Shown here one piece after another: positions 1-16,210 of a stretch of DNA of 27,920 nucleotides (positions within the stretch are counted from its first letter, which is position 1; every line of letters begins with the position of its first letter). The position numbers and the translations under genes are program-made. This stretch comes from a virus (Duplodnaviria; Heunggongvirae; Uroviricota; Caudoviricetes). Under the pieces are notes generated by a model. It was given only the letters and a program-made list of their open reading frames with translations, made no database searches and was not told where the DNA came from. The stretch is from IMG/VR virus record IMGVR_UViG_3300045988_162894, one strand, 5' to 3'.

Positions 1-170
1 AAGAGTGGTCTGGAAAAATGTAGTGATATTCGACGCAGATATTTAGGCTGAGCACGAGGATTTTACTTTCTATATGAGTGACTATTATAAAAACTGCTCT
101 CAGAATTTGATAGTATTTGATATGATACGCTCTTCTTTACTTATGCGTTTTTTAATAGGGTTAATATATA

Positions 171-1385
171 ATGACTAAGCAAAAAAAACCTAGGAAAGTT
201 CGGATAACAAAAGCTGAAAAAGAACGACGTGCAGAGTTTGATAAAAAGGAAATGAATATACGTGAGTATTTTTCAAATTTAAATAAACATGTGAACGATA
301 TTCGTAGTAAAGAGCGAGATTTTCATGGCCTTATCAGAGAACTGAATTACTTTCAAAAAAATATTGAATTTGAATACGAGAAAACGAGGGACATATCCCA
401 TCCAAGAGACTTAGGCAATGCTCGCGAAAATATACTAAAAGATTTTTTGAAATTAAGCGGTTTATTCCCAAGGCGTTATGCTGTGTCTTCAAGAAGCGTA
501 AGAGTTGCTGCTGCTACAGGACATCTTAGCAACGAGATTGACATCGCATTATATGATGCAGATGATGGATATGTGCTAATGCAGCGTAACGAAATATATG
601 ATGTTTACCCTTCTGAAAATGTATATGGAGTTATTCAAGTAAAATCAAAACTTACTAGGAAAGAATTAAGCAGTGCCATAAAAAATATTGCATCATATAA
701 AAAACTACAAAGAAAAAAGAATGGCCATGGATTTTTTATAAATAACACATCATTCTCAGGGTTCGGAGTTGTTTTTGCATATGAAACAGAAATGCACTGG
801 GATGATATAGTATCTGCTCTTAAGGAAGAAATCCAGAGTAATGAAACAAAATTACTACCCAATGCAGTTTTCATATTAAATAAAGGCTATTTTTTATTTG
901 GTAACAACAATGAATATCTGAGTTATAATTCAGATAGGATGATTAATGCAACTGACATGATTGTACATGGCTTTCCTGATCGTGATGGTTGTTCCTTAGT
1001 TAACTTCCACAAGTTAATGATTACATTGTTGAATAATACTCAAAAAGGGAATGTAAATATAAGTGATTATTATAGATTACCTTTAACTGCTGGAGATTAT
1101 TCTTACGAATTTAATTTTGGTATGTTTAATGAGTTAATTAACTGTGAAGTACACGGTCCATATCATCGTTTATTCAAAGAGAAAGCTTTAAAAACATTAG
1201 TAAATTATTGTGTTAGCAATGAACAGATTAATATGGTTAAGTTAATCGACTTGGCTTTAGGTAAAACTCCAAATAATGAGGAAGCATACCAAAGACAACC
1301 ATCGATGGTGACATTATATAACCCAGAAAATTTGCCACTACCTGAATTAATGTTTAGGGCGGTTCCGATGGTAAAGAATATATGA
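171..1385 (+). CDS. Hypothetical 404-aa protein in AT-rich cargo DNA; possible PD-(D/E)xK-like nuclease core (candidate defence/abortive-infection gene)
   Basis: Uninterrupted 1215-nt ORF in visibly AT-rich DNA where random stops are frequent. Possible extended -10 (TGATATGAT, 118-126) upstream. By eye the motifs E(NARENILKDF)...D(EIDIALYD)...QxK(GVIQVKSK) follow the helix-strand-strand spacing of PD-(D/E)xK nucleases. No tyrosine-recombinase motifs seen. Function is inference only. Confidence 0.6.
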   Translation: MTKQKKPRKVRITKAEKERRAEFDKKEMNIREYFSNLNKHVNDIRSKERDFHGLIRELNYFQKNIEFEYEKTRDISHPRDLGNARENILKDFLKLSGLFPRRYAVSSRSVRVAAATGHLSNEIDIALYDADDGYVLMQRNEIYDVYPSENVYGVIQVKSKLTRKELSSAIKNIASYKKLQRKKNGHGFFINNTSFSGFGVVFAYETEMHWDDIVSALKEEIQSNETKLLPNAVFILNKGYFLFGNNNEYLSYNSDRMINATDMIVHGFPDRDGCSLVNFHKLMITLLNNTQKGNVNISDYYRLPLTAGDYSYEFNFGMFNELINCEVHGPYHRLFKEKALKTLVNYCVSNEQINMVKLIDLALGKTPNNEEAYQRQPSMVTLYNPENLPLPELMFRAVPMVKNI

Positions 1386-1525
1386 CATCAACTATCGCTT
1401 ATGAACATATAACTTGTCAGGGTTATAGTATAATAATTCCATATTATTACTTGATGAAAGAAGATATGTTGGTGACATGTCCAAAATGCAAGAAAAATTT
1501 GACTAGTGATACATAGCTCTCAGTT

Positions 1526-1552
1526 ATGGCTGATTGTATAATAATCAGCCAT
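1526..1552. repeat. Perfect inverted repeat (10-bp arms ATGGCTGATT / AATCAGCCAT, 7-nt spacer GTATAAT) followed by T-rich tract on + strand; possible terminator or protein-binding site
   Basis: Read directly from sequence. Lies about 140 bp downstream of the 171-1385 ORF stop. Confidence 0.5.
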
Positions 1553-1718
1553 AGTTAATTTTTATGTGTGGTTTACACTCTATTAGATTAGGCAGTAAAT
1601 TTACTCATCTGTATATTGCATTGAAAACCGGATTTGCCATACTTCATAATTAACAAAACATAAATAAATTAGTTAAATAACTTGCACTAAACTCCATAAA
1701 CATATTATAAACTTCCGC

Positions 1719-1775
1719 AGCTGGCACAGAGCAGACAGTCATATTTGTTTGGTCTGTGCCATAGATGTGCCAGCT
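1719..1775. repeat. Nested inverted repeats (AGCTGGCACA ... TGTGCCAGCT with inner CAGAC ... GTCTG) just downstream of the alpA-like gene; possible recombination or regulatory site
   Basis: 10-bp arms at 1719-1728 and 1766-1775 are exact reverse complements; inner 5-bp arms at 1733-1737 and 1753-1757. No T-run on either strand, so not a canonical terminator. Confidence 0.45.
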
Positions 1776-1795
1776 CAGATTTGAGCCAATGTTTG

Positions 1796-1990
1796 TTACT
1801 CAATTACTCCAGCAAACCTGTATATCTTACGTGATGCCCATTTATTTGGGCAGGATTTAATATCAGGATCTGGAAAATCTTGTCTGTATTTCTGGCCAGT
1901 CCTCCTATTTACGCTGTTCCAGCGAAGCACCGTTGATATTGAAACGCCACAGAATTCGGCGACTTGTTTTGTTGTCATTAAGTTGTTCAT
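1796..1990 (-). CDS. AlpA-family phage transcriptional regulator / excisionase-like small HTH protein
   Basis: 64-aa ORF; TTKQVAEFCGVSISTVLRW matches the AlpA/Vis-type HTH pattern. Strong RBS GGAGGGG 5 nt upstream of the ATG on the minus strand. Confidence 0.7.
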   Translation of the reverse strand: MNNLMTTKQVAEFCGVSISTVLRWNSVNRRTGQKYRQDFPDPDIKSCPNKWASRKIYRFAGVIE

Positions 1991-2024
1991 TGCTGCCCCT
2001 CCAGCGATTGTTCAGTTGAAAGAC

Positions 2025-2561
2025 TTATGCGCATGTGTGTAACTCCGATAACTCGTTAAAGCGCTCTATAAACATCCCGTAGGCATGGCCCGGTGCCAGT
2101 GGAATCACGTTGAACATCTCTGTTGCCGGGATGCCTTCCAGCACAGGCCAGAAAGAGCCATCATCAAGCCCGAGATCGCGGCGTTCGGTTGCCAGCATGA
2201 TGAGATCGGCATATTTCACGGGCGTACTCATAACTGGGGGTAACCCGTATTTCTCACGGATTACGGCGTCTATTTTTTCTTCCATCCGTTTATAGTCAGG
2301 AAGAAGGCGTTTCAGTGGTGCGGGGATGTCCTGGCAATATGCTTCTGTTGCATCATGCATTAACGCTTCAAAAACAAATTCCTGCGGTACCAGCTGGCTG
2401 CAAAGCACCGCATGTTGGGCGACGCTGTAGAAGTGTGAAAGATGCCCTGCAAAGCGACAGATATTTGAAAGGGAAACCGCGATATCGTTAATCACGATAT
2501 CGTCTTTATTTATCTTGTCATAATAAAAATGCTTCCCGGAAAAAGTTTTAATAAATGACAT
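2025..2561 (-). CDS. HD-domain phosphohydrolase (YfdR-like, 5'-deoxynucleotidase-type fold)
   Basis: Motifs RFAGH...SVAQHA...LMHDATEAY typical of HD-domain metal-dependent phosphohydrolases. Start placed at internal ATG 2561 (GGAG RBS 7 nt upstream) rather than the GTG at 2591. Confidence 0.65.
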   Translation of the reverse strand: MSFIKTFSGKHFYYDKINKDDIVINDIAVSLSNICRFAGHLSHFYSVAQHAVLCSQLVPQEFVFEALMHDATEAYCQDIPAPLKRLLPDYKRMEEKIDAVIREKYGLPPVMSTPVKYADLIMLATERRDLGLDDGSFWPVLEGIPATEMFNVIPLAPGHAYGMFIERFNELSELHTCA

Positions 2562-2688
2562 TTTGTTCTCCACGTATATGTGCTGCACCACGCTGAATTC
2601 TGGTAAAAGGAAGCCCTCACCATCCGGCGATTATTGAGTTAATTACGTTTCCATAAATGCCCCCGCAGGGGCATTTGCAGTAATGAAA

Positions 2689-3513
2689 TCAGGCGCTGAA
2701 AGTACCAATGAAGGTTTCTACTTTGCTGTCTTTGAATTTCTCAACAAGCAGATCACGAAATTCGTTAGCCATTTCTTCCTGCACCGCTTCCAGCTGAATA
2801 ATGCGCAGAACCAGTACAGGACGATCGCCAGTGATAATGCTGAGGCGTAATTTAAACGGACGTTCTTTCAGGCCTTCAAACGGAACGCATTTAAATTCAA
2901 ATGCCACTGGCATAATATCTTTGGTTTTCGCTTCGACAGACTCCATCAGGGAGCGTTTGCCGCTGAAGTCATTATCTTCAAAATCAGCGGTCTGGTTTGC
3001 TTCAATCGTGATTTTACGGACAGCCGCAGCCGCTTTTGTTGCCTGAATAGCGTCACCATTAGCATCAAAGCCCACAAGGTAGCCGGCCCAGTCTTCAATC
3101 CATTCTGCCAGTGACTTCTGGGAATGACGCTCGCCATTAACAGACAACAGAGCAGAGAACGGTGCTGTCTTTTTCAGTTTGAGAGTGGCGGTGTTATCTG
3201 CGTGACCTGGTTCATCAATAGTACCCAGGTTAAGCACACTGACGGCTCGCATATTATCGGCATCGATAAAGCAGCGGGTGCCTTCATCTGCAAGATCTTT
3301 AGAATAACGGGTAAAGTCATCGATGCTGGCAGTGGAAAGCGCACCACGGAAACGGAAGCGATTTAAATTAAATTTTTCCAGATCATGAATGCGGAAATTC
3401 TCAGGCAATGCCACAGCATCGGCACCAATCTTACTGATAATTTCATTAACACCCTGAGCAGAAATAAGGGCATGGATTTGATTAATTGCGGTTGCGTCTA
3501 AGTTCTGAGACAT
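2689..3513 (-). CDS. DUF2303-family protein (YfdQ-like)
   Basis: 274-aa ORF with AGGA RBS; length and sequence recalled as resembling CPS-53/KpLE1 YfdQ. Gene order yfdP-yfdQ-yfdR is conserved here. Confidence 0.6.
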
Positions 3514-3578
3514 AATAAGTCCTCACTATATAAAGATATTCAGTGATGAGATAAATAATCAGTTAATTAAAAACGATA

Positions 3579-3941
3579 TTAACGACCTGCTGCGCGGAGT
3601 TTTCCGTCAGGTTCACCGGCAAGAGTCAGTAACTGTCCCTGGTCTTCCTGCAGAATAGTCAGGCGACCACCGCGATTGACATACATCGGCGTTTCGGTGG
3701 TGTCTTCTTCGGAAATTTTCCCGCGGTTAGTCGGGCGAACATATGAGAGTTTGTGTTTGATTTTCACACGGTTCTCATCAAATGGTTCGATTTCCAGGTT
3801 GAGTGAGACCTTACCTTTGGTTTTCGTGTTCATCACACCGGAAGCGACTTCACTGAGAACTGCGCCGATTTTGGTTTCAAATACGCCGCCGTCCAGCTCC
3901 CCGATAAATGCCTGCACATCAGTACTGCGTTCGCTAGCCAT
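3579..3941 (-). CDS. YfdP-like hypothetical phage protein (120 aa)
   Basis: The track ORF 3579-4259 extends upstream with non-protein-like R/C-rich sequence. Start placed at ATG 3941, preceded by AGGAG with 8-nt spacing. Confidence 0.55.
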   Translation of the reverse strand: MASERSTDVQAFIGELDGGVFETKIGAVLSEVASGVMNTKTKGKVSLNLEIEPFDENRVKIKHKLSYVRPTNRGKISEEDTTETPMYVNRGGRLTILQEDQGQLLTLAGEPDGKLRAAGR

Positions 3942-3989
3942 TTTGCTGCTCCTCATCATATCGACCCTGCAAGGCCGATTAGTTTCTCC

Positions 3990-4078
3990 ACAAAACAGAG
4001 AAGAACACCTGCGGTGGCAGCCGCCCGGATGGATTGGGTTATGAGCCCGTCGTCCGGTGATGCTCTTCTCTGTTTTGT
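3990..4078. other. Long imperfect hairpin (18-bp arms ACAAAACAGAGAAGAACA / TGCTCTTCTCTGTTTTGT, one mismatch, 53-nt GC-rich loop) within a GC-rich stretch lacking a convincing ORF; candidate structured RNA or DNA site
   Basis: Arms read directly from sequence. The surrounding 3942-4378 has only junk-like overlapping ORFs in the track. Confidence 0.4.
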
Positions 4079-4378
4079 AAAAAGGACGGTACCAGCCGGA
4101 AGCAAGGGTACAAACTGGTACCGCCGGGACTACACACAGCATAAAGTTGTGGTGCCGGGTGCCTCCCGGTGCCTGGCGAAGGTTGCACACCAGACGGGTG
4201 GGTATCCACAGAAGGTCGACTGTCAGCCTCAACCTTAACCCGCGTGCGCTGAGCCGCATTCACCACAACGCTAAGGATTCTCTCTGGTTGAAAATACTTA
4301 GCTGTTATGTGCCTGTCTTTTCACCACTTCAGGCTCGGTGGGATCCTTTTAAGCCCGTATACATAAAAGGAAAATCAA

Positions 4379-4624
4379 ATGACTTTTGATGAAAAAGAAC
4401 TTGATAATGCAATTAATAAAATCATCGTAACGTCGCTCTTTTCCTGTCTCAGCGACACTCAGAAGAAACAGTTCTACGAATCGGTTTTCAACATGATCGA
4501 GCGTTGTTGTTTCTGCGATGCCGACGAGTTACCTGAAAAAATCAGGAAACAGTTGGCTGATGCTCTTCGAGTGCGACTTTCTGACCAATTTTCTGAAATG
4601 TGCTCTCCGAATTTGGACAAATAG
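4379..4624 (+). CDS. Hypothetical small acidic protein (81 aa), opposite orientation to the early-left operon
   Basis: Good RBS (AAGGAAAA, 5-nt spacer) and protein-like sequence. Overlaps convergently with the minus-strand ORF 4542-4817, so at most one of the two is likely real. Confidence 0.35.
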   Translation: MTFDEKELDNAINKIIVTSLFSCLSDTQKKQFYESVFNMIERCCFCDADELPEKIRKQLADALRVRLSDQFSEMCSPNLDK

Positions 4625-7825: not shown

Positions 7826-8314
7826 ATGAGTCTTTTGAATGACGTTCAGAAATTCATTGAAGCCCATCCGGGCTGTACTTCCGGAGACATTGCGGATGCT
7901 TTTGCAGGTTACTCACGGCAGCGCGTTCTGCAGTCAGCAAGCAAGTTACGTCAGAGTGGGCGTGTGGCTCACCGTTGTGAAGGAGATACACGCAGACATT
8001 TCCCGCGCCTGACTGAGAGAGCGCAGGAACCGGAACCACAACCAGTTCGAGAAACCAGACCTGTGCGCAATTTCTATGTCGGCACTAACGATCCACGGGT
8101 GATTTTGTGCCTGACCCGCCAGGCTGAAGAACTGGAGTCCAGGGGCTTATACCGTCGTGCTGCAACCGTGTGGATGGCGGCATTCCGTGAAAGCCACTCC
8201 CAGCCAGAACGAAACAATTTTCTGGCGCGTCGTGAGCGGTGCTTACGGAAAAGCAGCAAGCGCGCTGCATCGGGTGAAGAGTGGTATCTGTCAGGGAATT
8301 ACGTGGGGGCTTAA
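7826..8314 (+). CDS. Hypothetical regulator, possibly PerC-family transcriptional activator-like
   Basis: The motif LESRGLYRRAATVWMAAF resembles the conserved core of PerC/Pch-type proteins as recalled. RBS GGGGG before ATG 7826. Family not verified. Confidence 0.4.
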   Translation: MSLLNDVQKFIEAHPGCTSGDIADAFAGYSRQRVLQSASKLRQSGRVAHRCEGDTRRHFPRLTERAQEPEPQPVRETRPVRNFYVGTNDPRVILCLTRQAEELESRGLYRRAATVWMAAFRESHSQPERNNFLARRERCLRKSSKRAASGEEWYLSGNYVGA

Positions 8315-8640
8315 TGACGACGTTAACTCAATGCCAGCAGCAGGTGCTGGATATGCTGATTTCTTATCAGAAAGAACGTGGCTTCCCGCCAACCAATCAG
8401 GAGGTGGCAACCATGCTGGGATACCGTTCGGTGAATGCAGCGGTGGAGCATCTTCGTGCGCTGGAGAAAAAAGGCGTCATCACGATAAAGCGTGGCGTGG
8501 CCCGGGGGATAACGCTTCATACCGCGGTGAAGGACGACGACAGCGAGGCGGTCGGGATTATCCGCGCACTGCTTGCCGGTGAGGAAAACGCAAAGCTGCG
8601 TGCAACCCACTGGTTACATGAGAGGGGCCTGAAAGTATGA
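8314..8640 (+). CDS. LexA N-terminal DNA-binding-domain-like protein lacking the S24 autopeptidase domain
   Basis: 108 aa. QCQQQVLDMLISYQKERGFPPTNQEVATMLGYRSVNAAVEHLRALEKKGVITIKRGVARGI parallels the LexA winged-HTH domain (ARQQEVFDLI...[36 protein letters not shown]). Start ATG overlaps the upstream stop (TAATG). Confidence 0.65.
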   Translation: MTTLTQCQQQVLDMLISYQKERGFPPTNQEVATMLGYRSVNAAVEHLRALEKKGVITIKRGVARGITLHTAVKDDDSEAVGIIRALLAGEENAKLRATHWLHERGLKV

Positions 8641-9026
8641 AGCTGATCCTGCCTTTTCCGCCCAGCGTGAACACGTACTGGCGACACCCCAACAAAGGGG
8701 CGTTTGCTGGTAAGAGCCTGATAAGCGCGGCGGGGCGAAAATTTCAGAGCGCGGCGTGTGCAGCAATAGTTGAGCAGTTACGTCGTCTGCCAAAACCAAC
8801 GTCGGCACCTGCTTCAGTGGAGATCGTGTTGTTTCCTCCGGATAACAGGATCCGCGATCTGGACAACTATAACAAGGCACTGTTTGACGCCCTGACACAC
8901 GCGGGTGTGTGGGAAGACGACAGCCAGGTGAAAAGAATGCTGGTGGAGTGGGGACCGGTTATCCCGAAAGGGAAGGTCGAGATCACTATCAGTAAGTATG
9001 AGAAACCGGCGGGTGCAGCCGCCTGA
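8637..9026 (+). CDS. rusA: RusA-family Holliday junction resolvase
   Basis: 129 aa. LPFPPSVNTYWRH...DLDNYNKALFDALTHAGVWEDDSQV matches the RusA catalytic core. Typical nin-region position. Confidence 0.85.
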   Translation: MKLILPFPPSVNTYWRHPNKGAFAGKSLISAAGRKFQSAACAAIVEQLRRLPKPTSAPASVEIVLFPPDNRIRDLDNYNKALFDALTHAGVWEDDSQVKRMLVEWGPVIPKGKVEITISKYEKPAGAAA

Positions 9027-9045
9027 TTAAGAGGAGAAACGAAGT

Positions 9046-9855
9046 ATGAATAATCTGATGGTCATTGATGGTATTGAAGTTCGTCGTGATGCTTATGGGC
9101 GTTACAGCCTGAACGATCTGCACAGGGCAGCCGGGGGAGAACAAAAAAACCGCCCGAAATACTGGCTCTCCAATAAGCAAACCTGTGAATTGATTGAACA
9201 ACTTTTCACCGAGGGTGGAATTACGCCTCTGGAACAAAATCAACCAGTTAGCGTCATTAATGGCGGAAATAACCAGGGGACGTATGTCTGCAAAGAACTG
9301 GTGTATGCCTATGCAATGTGGATCAGCCCGTCATTCCATCTGAAGGTGATCCGTACTTTCGATATGGTAACCAGCGCACCGGAAAAATTATCCGGGCAGG
9401 CTGCTGACAAGATGCAGGCTGGAGTGATTCTGCTGGACTTTATGCGCAGGGAGTTAAACCTGTCTAACTCTTCAGTGCTTGGTGCCTGTCAGAAACTCCA
9501 GGAGGCTGTTGGCTTACCGAATCTGGCACCGCGCTATGCCATTGATGCTCCTGCTGACGCGCCTGATGGCTCAAGTCGCCCTACGCTGTCGCTGAGTGCA
9601 CTGCTGAAACAGTATGGTATCCGCCTGACGGCTAATCAGGCATATCACCAGATGGTGAAACTGGGGATCGTCGAGCAGCGCGAACGATACAGTCGTACTG
9701 CGATTAACAACATCAAAAAATTCTGGTCGCTGACAGCGAAAGGTTGCATGTTCGGCAAGAACATCACCAGTCCCGCAAATCCGCGCGAGACGCAGCCGCA
9801 TTTCTTCGAATCCCGATTCCCTGAGCTGTTAAAGCTGCTCGATACCGTTCATTGA
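9046..9855 (+). CDS. KilA-N domain protein (antirepressor-like)
   Basis: The N-terminal 100 aa (GRYSLNDLH...KELVYAYAMWISPSFHLKV) fit the KilA-N domain. GAGGAG RBS. Confidence 0.65.
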   Translation: MNNLMVIDGIEVRRDAYGRYSLNDLHRAAGGEQKNRPKYWLSNKQTCELIEQLFTEGGITPLEQNQPVSVINGGNNQGTYVCKELVYAYAMWISPSFHLKVIRTFDMVTSAPEKLSGQAADKMQAGVILLDFMRRELNLSNSSVLGACQKLQEAVGLPNLAPRYAIDAPADAPDGSSRPTLSLSALLKQYGIRLTANQAYHQMVKLGIVEQRERYSRTAINNIKKFWSLTAKGCMFGKNITSPANPRETQPHFFESRFPELLKLLDTVH

Positions 9856-12033: not shown

Positions 12034-12246
12034 TCATGAAAGGTAAACATTGGCAGCTGAAGGGCCACGCAGACCATTTATCCGGCAAAATTCCACGCGT
12101 AATCCGGTGGTAATTTCTTCTGCATCGCGGAGATTGAGCGCTGAAACATGAAGCTGGACATCGATACGACCATCGGATGGGGTGATAAGACCCTTGCCGC
12201 TTTTGCCGTCAAAGGTTTTGACAATTCCTGTCATTTTACGGGACAA
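12034..12246 (-). CDS. cspF: Cold-shock-domain protein, CspF/CspH-like
   Basis: 70 aa [13 protein letters not shown]...[13 protein letters not shown]. Divergent partner of the cspB-like gene, as in Qin. CspF versus CspH not resolved from memory. Confidence 0.75.
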
Positions 12247-12546: not shown

Positions 12547-12762
12547 ATGTCAAATAAAATGACTGGTTTAGTAAAATGGTTTAACGCTGATAAAGGTTTC
12601 GGCTTTATTTCTCCTGTTGATGGTAGTAAAGATGTGTTTGTGCATTTTTCTGCGATTCAGAATGATAATTTTCGAACCTTATTTGAAGGTCAAAAGGTTA
12701 CCTTCTCTGTAGAGAGTGGTGCTAAAGGTCCTGCAGCAGCAAATGTCATAATTACTGATTAA
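12547..12762 (+). CDS. cspB: Cold-shock protein CspB-like (CspA family)
   Basis: 71 aa [38 protein letters not shown]...; AAGGA RBS. Confidence 0.8.
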
Positions 12763-13514: not shown

Positions 13515-13730
13515 ATGAAATCAATGGATAAGTTAACAACAGGTATCGCCTATGGCACATCGGCTGGTAATGCTGGTTTCTGGGCATTGCAGTTACTCGA
13601 TAAAGTAACTCCGTCACAGTGGGCTGCAATCGGTGTGCTGGGTAGTCTGGTTTTTGGCCTGCTGACGTATCTGACAAACCTTTATTTCAAGATTAAAGAA
13701 GACAGGCGTAAGGTTGCGAGAAGAGAGTAA
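13515..13730 (+). CDS. Class II pinholin, phage 21 S21-like, with dual-start motif (M-K-S-M)
   Basis: 71 aa closely matching recalled S21 ([17 protein letters not shown]...[13 protein letters not shown]...[15 protein letters not shown]). GGTGAGG RBS. Confidence 0.85.
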
Positions 13731-14607: not shown

Positions 14608-15635
<1,028 letters not shown>

Positions 15636-15997
15636 ATTAATATTAAATCGGATTGTTTTTAGCGCTGAATGTGAAATTTAAATAAAAAGGACTCTTCCAT
15701 GAGTCAAAATCCTTGAAATCTTAAGGGTAAGATAAAAGGTCATTAGACAGAATGACACGTTTTATTAATAAATAAAGCTATTGTTTCATTCGTGTGTTTT
15801 TCTTTACAAAAGTAATCCTTGCTATGGTTGGTTAATCATGCGTTAATGGTGTTCTGGTTTGTTACAAAATTATCTGAAGCAGTCATTGTTATAATTTTAT
15901 TATTTGTACCTCTTGAGATTTCCTTGTTGGTTTTTCTCTCTGATATTTTTTTTCGGACCATTCGCCCAAGGGCTAACTTCTTCAAAAGGTAATAATG

Positions 15998-16210
15998 ATG
16001 TCTAACAAAATGACTGGTTTAGTGAAATGGTTTAACCCTGAAAAAGGTTTTGGTTTCATCACGCCGAAAGATGGTAGCAAAGATGTGTTTGTCCATTTCT
16101 CAGTTATTCAGAGCAACGATTTCAAAACGTTAACTGAGAATCAGGAAGTCGAATTTGGTATTGAGAACGGACCTAAAGGCCCCGCGGCTGTTCATGTAGT
16201 GGCACTTTGA
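15998..16210 (+). CDS. cspI: Cold-shock protein CspI-like (CspA family)
   Basis: [35 protein letters not shown]...; long AT-rich 5' leader typical of csp genes. Confidence 0.8.

What the first reader, a model, noticed from the sequence alone, without database searches (positions are those of the whole stretch)
171..1385. AT-rich orphan 404-aa gene at the prophage left end: candidate single-gene nuclease-type defence or abortive-infection factor
This is the longest ORF in the window that matches no phage function I recognise. It lies in visibly AT-rich DNA flanked by palindromes, next to the alpA-like gene, which is a typical cargo position. By eye it carries an E...D...QxK pattern (NARENILKDF / EIDIALYD / GVIQVKSK) spaced like the PD-(D/E)xK nuclease core, followed by about 230 aa of unassigned sequence. 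There is no partner methyltransferase or helicase in the window, so if it is a nuclease it would have to be self-contained.
Basis: partly seen in the sequence, partly recalled or inferred. Interest (0 to 1): 0.72.

Follow-up and report, generated by a model that had tools for sequence, protein, structure and literature searches.

The report
Frameshifted stand-alone NucC-like prophage nuclease
The AT-rich gene between the prophage integrase and excisionase is a broken copy (10-bp slippage frameshift) of a rare 451-aa protein that joins a complete NucC-type DNA-cutting fold to a zinc-binding tail of unknown fold, and it most likely served as a single-gene anti-phage cargo module.

Summary

Two corrections:
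1. It is not an orphan. It belongs to a rare, fixed two-domain family of about 420-470 aa, found in 31 of 185,579 species genomes.
2. The window copy is truncated. Losing one copy of a TCCGATGG 10-bp tandem repeat shifts the frame. The old C-terminus (IPYYY...CPKC) is stranded as the 44-aa ORF at 1382..1516, taking two of four invariant Cys/His ligands with it.

The 160-aa C-terminal domain has no solved structural relative and occurs only in this architecture. NucC's cA3-pocket residues and gate loop are not conserved, and there is no conserved partner gene.

The gene travels as a 1.8-kb module between a lambdoid int-xis slot and a P2 tail-gene slot. Elsewhere it sits among known defence genes. 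Other prophages fill the same int-xis slot with AIPR, REase or HNH genes.

Verdict: probably a single-gene defence nuclease, here inactivated. Anti-phage function is untested.

The parts
1..170 (+). Upstream non-coding leader that travels with the gene (presumed promoter and RBS region)
   Evidence: The DNA shared at about 94% between the lambdoid (L001 7968-9773) and P2 (L003 7799-9609) contexts starts about 200 bp upstream of the ATG and excludes the neighbouring genes. No strong sigma-70 consensus was found here.
171..1385 (+). Frameshift-truncated ORF (404 aa): residues 1-400 of the native 451-aa protein plus 4 out-of-frame residues (VKNI) and a stop
   Evidence: The exact product is recorded on only 2 contigs, against 144 contigs for the intact allele.
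171..320 (+). N-terminal Lys/Arg/Glu-rich long helix (about aa 1-50), an addition ahead of the NucC-like fold
   Evidence: The AF2 model has helix 14-46. This region is variable or absent in some family members.
321..1043 (+). NucC-like PD-(D/E)xK endonuclease domain (about aa 51-291). Catalytic codons: E86 426-428, D124 540-542, E149 615-617, Q156 636-638, K158 642-644
1044..1370 (+). Retained part of the family-specific C-terminal domain (aa 292-400), including the C325-x2-H328 knuckle (codons 1143-1145 and 1152-1154)
1364..1373 (+). Slippage site: a single TCCGATGG(TA) copy where intact alleles have two copies 10 bp apart. The -10 bp loss shifts the frame
   Evidence: P2-borne alleles carry both (imperfect) copies in frame, so the deletion is derived.
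1382..1516 (+). Stranded C-terminal tail (44-aa ORF, equal to native residues 408-451) with IPYYY and C440-x2-C443 (codons 1478-1480 and 1487-1489). Its ATG overlaps the upstream TGA (ATGA)
   Evidence: P427, Y430, C440 and C443 are invariant across the wide family.
1522..1566 (+). Intrinsic-terminator-like hairpin plus T-run, placed just after the stop of the native 451-aa frame
   Evidence: I9.
1719..1777 (.). Palindromic block at the right edge of the 1.8-kb mobile module. Similarity to the P2-borne copy ends at about 1777
   Evidence: (I2, I12).
1796..1990 (-). Excisionase gene (context): the right border of the int-xis cargo slot
   Evidence: phrog_1553 excisionase, E = 2.5e-35.

Best explanation
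The locus is a 1.8-kb single-gene cargo module in the integrase-excisionase slot of a lambdoid E. coli prophage integrated next to yjjG.

Its native product is 451 aa. It is a stand-alone DNA endonuclease built on the complete NucC fold, with active site E86 / D124 / E149 / Q156-x-K158. This is fused to a family-specific C-terminal domain of about 160 aa. That domain appears to be stapled by a Cys3His zinc site formed by C325-x2-H328 and C440-x2-C443.

Inferred: the intact protein is a self-contained anti-phage nuclease. The C-terminal domain, rather than a cyclic-oligonucleotide pocket, would control activity (trigger sensing and/or oligomerisation). Activated enzyme would degrade DNA, giving phage exclusion or abortive infection.

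Shown: in this window a 10-bp replication-slippage deletion between two TCCGATGG repeats has shifted the frame. It removes four beta-strands, the terminal helix and two of the four invariant Cys/His residues (the putative zinc ligands). This copy is therefore most likely inactive.
For: Fold and active site:
- Searches give sequence matches to DUF6602, PD_DExK and NucC.
- Searches show the catalytic residues are invariant. Position 156 is Q, or E in deep branches.
- The nuclease core is under purifying selection (dN/dS 0.10).

C-terminal domain:
- The models are confident.
- C325, H328, C440 and C443 are invariant in every member.
- The domain is found in only 99 representative clusters. The full-length hits have it at about residues 260-450, and all 10 divergent members checked carry DUF6602 upstream.
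- It has no PDB relative.

Signal independence:
- The equivalent of NucC Y81 is always D, N or E.
- The gate-loop segment is hypervariable (2-17 aa) and has low pLDDT.
- No cyclase or Cas10 is present in the window or in most loci.

Autonomy and mobility:
- The 1.8-kb module is shared between lambdoid and P2 slots.
- No partner recurs among neighbours.

Defence context:
- Sister prophages fill the same slot with AIPR, REase or HNH genes.
- The P2 copy sits beside the SIR2 candidate PDC-S25.
- Neighbours elsewhere include Wadjet, Thoeris, Dpd, Zorya, Avs, EcoRII and CBASS genes.
- Damona, a single-gene DUF6602 system, protects against phage (bioRxiv 10.1101/2024.07.02.601686).

Frameshift.
Against: - There is no experimental evidence of nuclease or anti-phage activity for this family.
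- The canonical metal-binding Glu is Gln in this clade, so catalytic competence is assumed, not shown.
- Zinc binding, oligomeric state and the sensor role of the C-terminal domain are inferred from conservation and a monomer model only.
- Two of 31 loci place the gene directly after a complete cyclase + 2TM CBASS. A cyclic-nucleotide link in some members is therefore not excluded.
- NucC pocket residues T226 and V227 could not be checked.
- No sequenced phage in INPHARED carries a relative.
- The two assemblies with the frameshift are 100% identical and may come from the same reads, so an assembly artefact is not fully excluded.
Confidence: 0.55

Rival explanations
1. Orphan second-messenger effector: the protein is still a cyclic-oligonucleotide-activated NucC that responds in trans, or as a second effector, to a CBASS or type III CRISPR cyclase. 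The C-terminal domain would be only an accessory.
For: - The whole NucC fold, including the non-core embellishments, is retained.
- The position equivalent to NucC R53 is basic in 34 of 39 members.
- In L036 (Pseudomonas nitroreducens) and L039 (Lucifera butyrica) the gene directly follows a cyclase + 2TM effector pair on the same strand.
Against: - The Y81 equivalent is never aromatic, and the gate loop with its H136/Y141 latch is not conserved, being nearly deleted in some members.
- 29 of 31 species loci, all E. coli contexts and the window have no adjacent cyclase.
- Both adjacent CBASS loci already have their own effector.
- The gene moves alone as a 1.8-kb module.
Confidence: 0.1
2. Solitary restriction-type nuclease: the protein cuts incoming DNA directly (sequence-, structure- or modification-dependent, type IV-like). 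The C-terminal domain would act as a DNA-recognition module, with no abortive infection or triggered activation.
For: - There is no methyltransferase partner.
- A Cys/His zinc module could bind DNA.
- The same slot holds a 'restriction endonuclease' in a sister prophage.
Against: - The C-terminal domain matches no known DNA- or modification-reading fold.
Confidence: 0.15
3. The window copy is still functional as a split gene. The 404-aa product and the 44-aa tail, whose ATG overlaps the upstream TGA as ATGA, are both made and reassemble. Only native residues 401-407 would be lost.
For: - The overlap ATGA at 1382-1385 allows termination-reinitiation.
- The break falls in a hairpin between two predicted strands (395-402 and 405-412).
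- The allele is seen in two assemblies.
Against: - No obvious Shine-Dalgarno sequence precedes the tail ORF.
- The allele is rare: 2 contigs against 144 for the intact identical allele.
- Other E. coli members are plainly truncated or split (256, 209 and 133+321 aa), which fits ordinary decay.
Confidence: 0.1
4. Not a defence gene: a nuclease used by the prophage for itself (host or competitor DNA degradation during induction, recombination, or an addiction or stabilisation module).
For: - It is carried by prophages and islands.
- A nuclease with no visible immunity partner could serve lytic growth.
Against: - It sits in non-essential variable slots that otherwise hold Abi, REase or SIR2 genes.
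- It also occurs outside prophages, among Wadjet, Thoeris, Zorya and Dpd genes and on plasmids.
- It is absent from all 50,697 deposited phage genomes.
Confidence: 0.1

Closest known systems
NucC (CBASS and type III CRISPR effector endonuclease; PDB 6p7p, 6p7o, 6q1h, 7zgv, 6uxf)
   Different: - Identity is about 18%.
- It has an extra N-terminal helix of about 50 aa and an extra C-terminal Cys/His domain of about 160 aa.
- The metal-ligand Glu is Gln in this clade.
- The cA3-stacking Tyr81 and the gate-loop latch are not conserved.
- It is not encoded with a cyclase or Cas10 in the window or in 29 of 31 species loci.
Damona (single-gene DUF6602 anti-phage cassette of the Vibrio cholerae chromosomal integron; Darracq et al., bioRxiv 10.1101/2024.07.02.601686)
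   Same: It is a single gene with a DUF6602 domain and the same secondary hits (Cas PD_DExK and the CBASS small endonuclease). Homologues are often in prophages.
   Different: The paper's blastp homologues are mainly in Acinetobacter. This family has no Acinetobacter or V. cholerae member among the hits. It is therefore probably a different DUF6602 subfamily, but that is an inference.
Type IIP restriction endonucleases of the NgoMIV / Cfr10I / Bse634I / Kpn2I / SgrAI group
   Different: There is no cognate methyltransferase and no recognisable specificity elements. The similarity is far weaker than to NucC.
Variable cargo genes of temperate-phage hotspots (P2 and P4 hotspots, Rousset et al. 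2022 PMC9122126; PMC13586616)
   Same: It is a small, AT-rich, self-contained module exchanged between mobile elements and sitting in variable slots beside other defence candidates.
   Different: The P2 slot here lies between the tail-fibre assembly gene and the sheath gene, not in the old/tin hotspot analysed by Rousset et al.. This gene is not named in either paper.

Membership tests
Pfam DUF6602 (PF20247) | Score above the curated gathering threshold (27 bits) | tested here: met
   78.5 bits, E = 4.1e-22, aa 72-179. All 10 divergent family members tested also pass.
NucC effector endonucleases | NucC monomer fold, including the family-specific embellishments around the restriction-endonuclease core | tested here: met
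NucC effector endonucleases | Active-site motif I-D-x30-E-A/V-K, with Asp73 and Glu104 binding Mg2+ | tested here: inconclusive
   I123-D124 and K158 are invariant. Position 156 is Gln in all 39 close members, Glu in 5 deep-branching members and Ser in one. An invariant E149 lies nearby. Activity was not tested.
NucC effector endonucleases | cA3 allosteric pocket (Arg53, Tyr81, Thr226/Val227) and gate loop latch (His136, Tyr141) | tested here: not met
   - Arg53 equivalent: R23 / K11 / S4 / I1.
- Tyr81 equivalent: D25 / N10 / E4, never aromatic.
- Gate-loop segment: 2-17 aa, unconserved, with low pLDDT.
- Thr226 and Val227 could not be mapped because no coordinates were available.
NucC effector endonucleases | Encoded in an operon with a CD-NTase (CBASS) or Cas10 (type III CRISPR) | tested here: not met
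   None in the window, in the E. coli lambdoid, P2 or island contexts, or in 29 of 31 species loci. Two loci lie next to complete cyclase + 2TM CBASS systems.
NucC effector endonucleases | Homotrimer that hexamerises on activation | not testable with these tools
Damona (DUF6602 single-gene defence) | Single gene with DUF6602 that also matches Cas PD_DExK and the CBASS small endonuclease | tested here: met
   against the description.
Damona (DUF6602 single-gene defence) | Sequence-level homology to the V. cholerae Damona protein, and demonstrated phage protection | not testable with these tools
   The sequence is in neither the text nor the held supplement. No V. cholerae locus was recovered with family motifs.
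Type II restriction-modification | Cognate methyltransferase adjacent to the endonuclease | tested here: not met
   No methyltransferase lies next to the gene in any context. The window even lacks the phage Dam gene that the JNU prophage has.
Prophage or MGE defence-hotspot cargo | Occupies a slot between conserved genes whose content varies among related elements and includes known defence genes | tested here: met
   The int-xis slot at yjjG holds this gene (L001, L054, window), AIPR (L021), REase plus a hypothetical gene (L020) or an HNH endonuclease (L022). In the P2 slot it sits beside SIR2 PDC-S25.

The most novel reading that the evidence does not exclude
The intact family is an undescribed single-protein immune nuclease. 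In it the NucC scaffold has been uncoupled from cyclic-oligonucleotide signalling. Control would instead come from a zinc-stapled C-terminal domain of a fold with no solved relative, which senses a phage cue or gates oligomerisation directly. The whole system moves as a 1.8-kb cassette between prophage cargo slots and defence islands across at least five phyla. A more speculative rider: the perfect 8-bp repeat at 10-bp spacing in the lambdoid-borne allele makes it a slippage-prone off switch for a costly nuclease.
Probability: 0.35. Interest if true: 0.62.

Novelty: new variant of a known kind. Interest (0 to 1): 0.45.

Why it matters
NucC is the textbook example of a restriction-like nuclease controlled by a cyclic trinucleotide. 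This is a natural lineage that keeps the entire NucC fold but has lost the pocket signature and gained a private Cys/His domain. It would show how a signal-dependent effector can become an autonomous sensor-effector. It would also add a compact (1.35-kb) candidate to the list of single-gene defences carried by prophages.

The int-xis slot at the yjjG site also emerges as a small defence hotspot in E. coli lambdoid prophages. For this particular window the practical message is more modest. The copy is frameshifted, so any experiment should use the intact allele.

Tried and rejected
- **AFDB50 fold search:** the library was not available.
- **Model coordinates:** I could not superpose the model on NucC to check T226/V227, or see whether the C-terminal domain covers the former cA3 pocket.
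- **Full-length NucC sequences:** a search with an Ec NucC fragment returned only fragments under 190 aa, so no profile-profile alignment over the NucC C-terminus was possible.
- **Damona sequence:** not found in the main text, supplement or citing papers.
- **Deposited phages:** megablast and tblastn against INPHARED found nothing.
- **Deleted-junction 33-mer:** not found in viral contigs or metagenome contigs.
- **Promoter:** the sigma-70 scan gave no convincing promoter upstream of the ATG, so the promoter remains unassigned.
- **SIR2 partnership rejected:** the module shared between contexts excludes SIR2, and SIR2 matches a single-gene candidate (PDC-S25) on its own.
- **'The Gln is decay' rejected:** Q156 is invariant in the clade and alternates only with Glu in deep branches.
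- **'Both indels are deletions in the window' rejected:** the 11-bp difference at about 1752 is a duplication in strain JNU, and the window has the ancestral single copy.

Full report
**1. What is in the sequence**

- The ORF at 171..1385 (+, ATG, 404 aa) exists as described.
- The first 1.5 kb has 30-33% GC, against about 50% for most of the window.
- A strong hairpin with a T-run lies at 1522-1556, and a palindromic block at 1719-1775.
- The gene at 1796..1990 (-) is an excisionase (phrog_1553, E = 2.5e-35).
- Two records extend to the left of the window: E. coli JNU (L001) and an ENA metagenome scaffold that is 100% identical to window 1-4385 (L054). In both, a tyrosine integrase ends about 200 bp upstream, and the prophage is inserted next to yjjG.
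- The gene therefore occupies the int-xis slot at the left end of a lambdoid prophage. The rest of the window carries a repressor, CII-like, PerC, RusA, KilA-N, DUF968 and Q antiterminator genes, then lysis and morphogenesis genes.

**2. The ORF is a truncated copy**

RefSeq annotates the same gene as a 451-aa 'DUF6602 domain-containing protein'. Over window 1-2000 the DNA is identical to strain JNU except for two indels.

- *First indel.* The window has one copy of TCCGATGG(TA) at 1364-1373, where JNU has TCCGATGGAA-TCCGATGGTA.
  - P2-borne alleles at 94% identity carry both copies in imperfect form and in frame.
  - The window therefore has a derived 10-bp deletion of the replication-slippage type.
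  - It shifts the frame after residue 400 and adds VKNI and a stop. The native residues 408-451 are left as the separate 44-aa ORF at 1382..1516, whose ATG overlaps the new TGA.
  - The terminator-like hairpin follows the stop of the native frame, not the stop of the 404-aa ORF.
- *Second indel (11 bp near 1752).* This is a duplication in JNU, and the window has the ancestral state.
- *Frequency.* The exact 404-aa product is recorded on 2 contigs (the 27,920-nt one is this window). The intact, otherwise identical protein is on 144 contigs. A few other E. coli members are also truncated or split (256, 209 and 133+321 aa).

**3. What the protein is**

- *Sequence matches.* The N-terminal two thirds match Pfam DUF6602 (E = 4e-22), PADLOC 'PD_DExK, Cas-associated' (2e-24) and NucC models (1e-17 over aa 58-253). 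They also match solved NucC chains by sequence. CBASS NucC itself carries PF20247.
  - E86, D124, E149 and K158 are invariant, and position 156 is Q, in a 40-sequence alignment.
  - In a wider alignment, position 156 is E in five deep-branching members and S in one.
  - These positions align to NucC's I-D73-x30-E104-A-K106.
  - The Gln is therefore a fixed clade trait at the metal-ligand position, not decay.
  - From my own memory, and untested here, Mrr-type enzymes have an active D...QxK site, and several NgoMIV/Cfr10I-type enzymes supply the second acidic residue from elsewhere.

**4. What is different from NucC**

- *Pocket and gate loop.* NucC binds cA3 through Arg53, Tyr81 and Thr226/Val227, and closes a gate loop latched by His136 and Tyr141.
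  - In this family the Tyr81 equivalent is D, N or E in all members.
  - The Arg53 equivalent is R or K in 34 of 39.
  - The gate-loop segment (aa 181-197) varies from 2 to 17 residues with no conserved His or Tyr, and is the lowest-confidence part of the model.
  - Thr226 and Val227 could not be mapped.
- *Additions.* There is a charged N-terminal helix of about 50 aa and a C-terminal domain of about 160 aa (residues 292-451).
  - The C-terminal domain folds confidently on its own (pLDDT 88).
  - A profile of it finds only 99 clusters among 1.84 billion representatives. Every full-length hit is 400-523 aa with the domain at the C-terminus. The ten most divergent all carry DUF6602 upstream.
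- *Likely zinc site.* C325, H328, C440 and C443 are invariant across the whole family.
  - C325-x2-H328 sits at a beta-hairpin turn.
  - C440-x2-C443 sits at the start of the last helix.
  - This is the geometry of a treble-clef-like zinc site, which would staple the tail onto the start of the domain. This is an inference.
- *What the window copy loses.* It loses strands 405-427, the IPYYY motif, both C-terminal cysteines and the last helix.

**5. Autonomy, mobility and context**

- *Shared module.* The DNA shared between the lambdoid copy and the P2-borne copy is 1.8 kb. It comprises the gene, about 200 bp upstream and about 250 bp downstream, and excludes the neighbours.
- *P2 context.* In P2-like prophages the module sits between the tail-fibre assembly gene and the sheath gene. 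A 504-aa SIR2 protein lies beside it and matches the PADLOC single-gene candidate PDC-S25 on its own.
- *The int-xis slot.* Sister lambdoid prophages at the same yjjG site fill the slot with an AIPR protein, a restriction endonuclease plus a hypothetical gene, or an 868-aa HNH endonuclease.
- *More distant members.* They lie at prophage ends or in integrase/AlpA islands.
- *Distribution.* Across GTDB species representatives the family occurs in 31 of 185,579 genomes. These are scattered over Proteobacteria, Myxococcota, Acidobacteriota, Negativicutes and Gastranaerophilales, and two are on plasmids.
- *No partner.* Among 114 nearest neighbours no Pfam family recurs in more than three loci. No two neighbours from different loci are even BLASTP-similar.
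- *Defence neighbours.* Many neighbours are known defence genes: JetA/B, ThsA/B, DpdE, ZorD, Avs3, EcoRII, mads genes and CBASS.
- *Selection.* Between the two E. coli lineages dN/dS is 0.35 overall, 0.10 in the nuclease core and about 0.5 in the C-terminal domain (small counts).

**6. Caveat**

In two very distant loci the gene directly follows a complete cyclase + 2TM-effector CBASS on the same strand. These are Pseudomonas nitroreducens (L036) and Lucifera butyrica (L039). This may be defence-island clustering, but it keeps alive the idea that some members still respond to a nucleotide signal.

**7. Interpretation**

- *Shown.* The gene is a frameshifted allele of a conserved, mobile, partner-less, two-domain NucC-fold protein that is encoded in cargo slots and defence islands.
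- *Inferred.* The intact protein is a single-gene anti-phage nuclease. Its activity would be gated by the private zinc-stapled domain and not by cA3. The window copy would be inactive, or at best a split gene.
- *Closest experimental precedents.* These are NucC (10.1101/694703) and Damona, a single-gene DUF6602 cassette that protects against phages (10.1101/2024.07.02.601686). Damona's sequence could not be obtained, so membership is untested. Taxonomic distributions suggest a different subfamily.
- *Literature.* I found no paper that describes this architecture. 'DUF6602' occurs in a single paper in the library.

**8. Verdict**

This is a new variant of a known kind and is moderately interesting. 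For this window its value is lowered because the copy is broken.

Noticed in passing
L036 4271-7311 (Pseudomonas nitroreducens) and L039 4300-7296 (Lucifera butyrica): In two phylogenetically very distant genomes the family gene lies directly downstream, on the same strand, of a complete type I CBASS (cyclase + 2TM effector). L039 also has a capH-like regulator at 8894-9355 (-). This could be island clustering or a real functional link.
   Followed up: partly
L003-L011 6012-7526 (E. coli P2-like prophages): A 504-aa SIR2_2 protein matching the PADLOC single-gene candidate PDC-S25 (E = 2e-144, with weaker ThsA similarity) sits beside the P2-borne copy. Both lie in the slot between the tail-fibre assembly gene and the sheath gene, which therefore holds two stacked candidate defence genes.
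   Followed up: partly
L020 2460-4325, L021 2563-4263, L022 1761-4367 (E. coli prophages at the yjjG site): The int-xis slot of this lambdoid prophage group is a small hotspot. Its alternative contents are a restriction endonuclease plus a hypothetical protein, an AIPR family protein, or an 868-aa HNH endonuclease.
   Followed up: partly
window 1742-1763, against L001 9753-9774: Strain JNU carries an 11-bp tandem duplication (TCTGTGCCATA x2) inside the palindromic block at the right edge of the module. The window and the P2-borne copies have one copy. So two slippage-type indels separate otherwise identical 2-kb sequences.
   Followed up: yes
window 12034-12246 (-), 12547-12762 (+), 15995-16210 (+): The two other AT-rich islands of the window (GC 0.33-0.42) carry three CspA-type cold-shock protein genes that flank the lysis cassette (holin-like 13515-13730, lysozyme 14608-15141, Rz-like 15138-15635). 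This looks like typical lambdoid cargo. The gene identities are judged by eye from the translations and were not searched.
   Followed up: no
window 8314-8317, against L001 16557-17210: The JNU prophage has a phage N6-adenine methyltransferase between the PerC-like and LexA-like genes. The window joins these two genes directly and lacks the methyltransferase.
   Followed up: partly
L017 9568-10587 (Pseudomonas asiatica): About 2 kb from the family gene lies a DUF4365 + Crr6 protein, the domain pair described for the 'Divona' defence cassette in the same integron paper. This is another hint of a defence island.
   Followed up: no
Cluster of P0001: P0129, P0131, P0132 + P0133: Several other E. 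coli genomes carry shortened or split versions of the gene (256 aa, 209 aa, and 133 + 321 aa on one contig). This suggests recurrent inactivation of the nuclease gene in the species.
   Followed up: no
window 105-127: A short direct repeat TTTGATAGTATTTGATATGAT lies about 45 bp upstream of the ATG in the leader that travels with the gene. It could be an operator or promoter element. No consensus sigma-70 promoter was found there.
   Followed up: no
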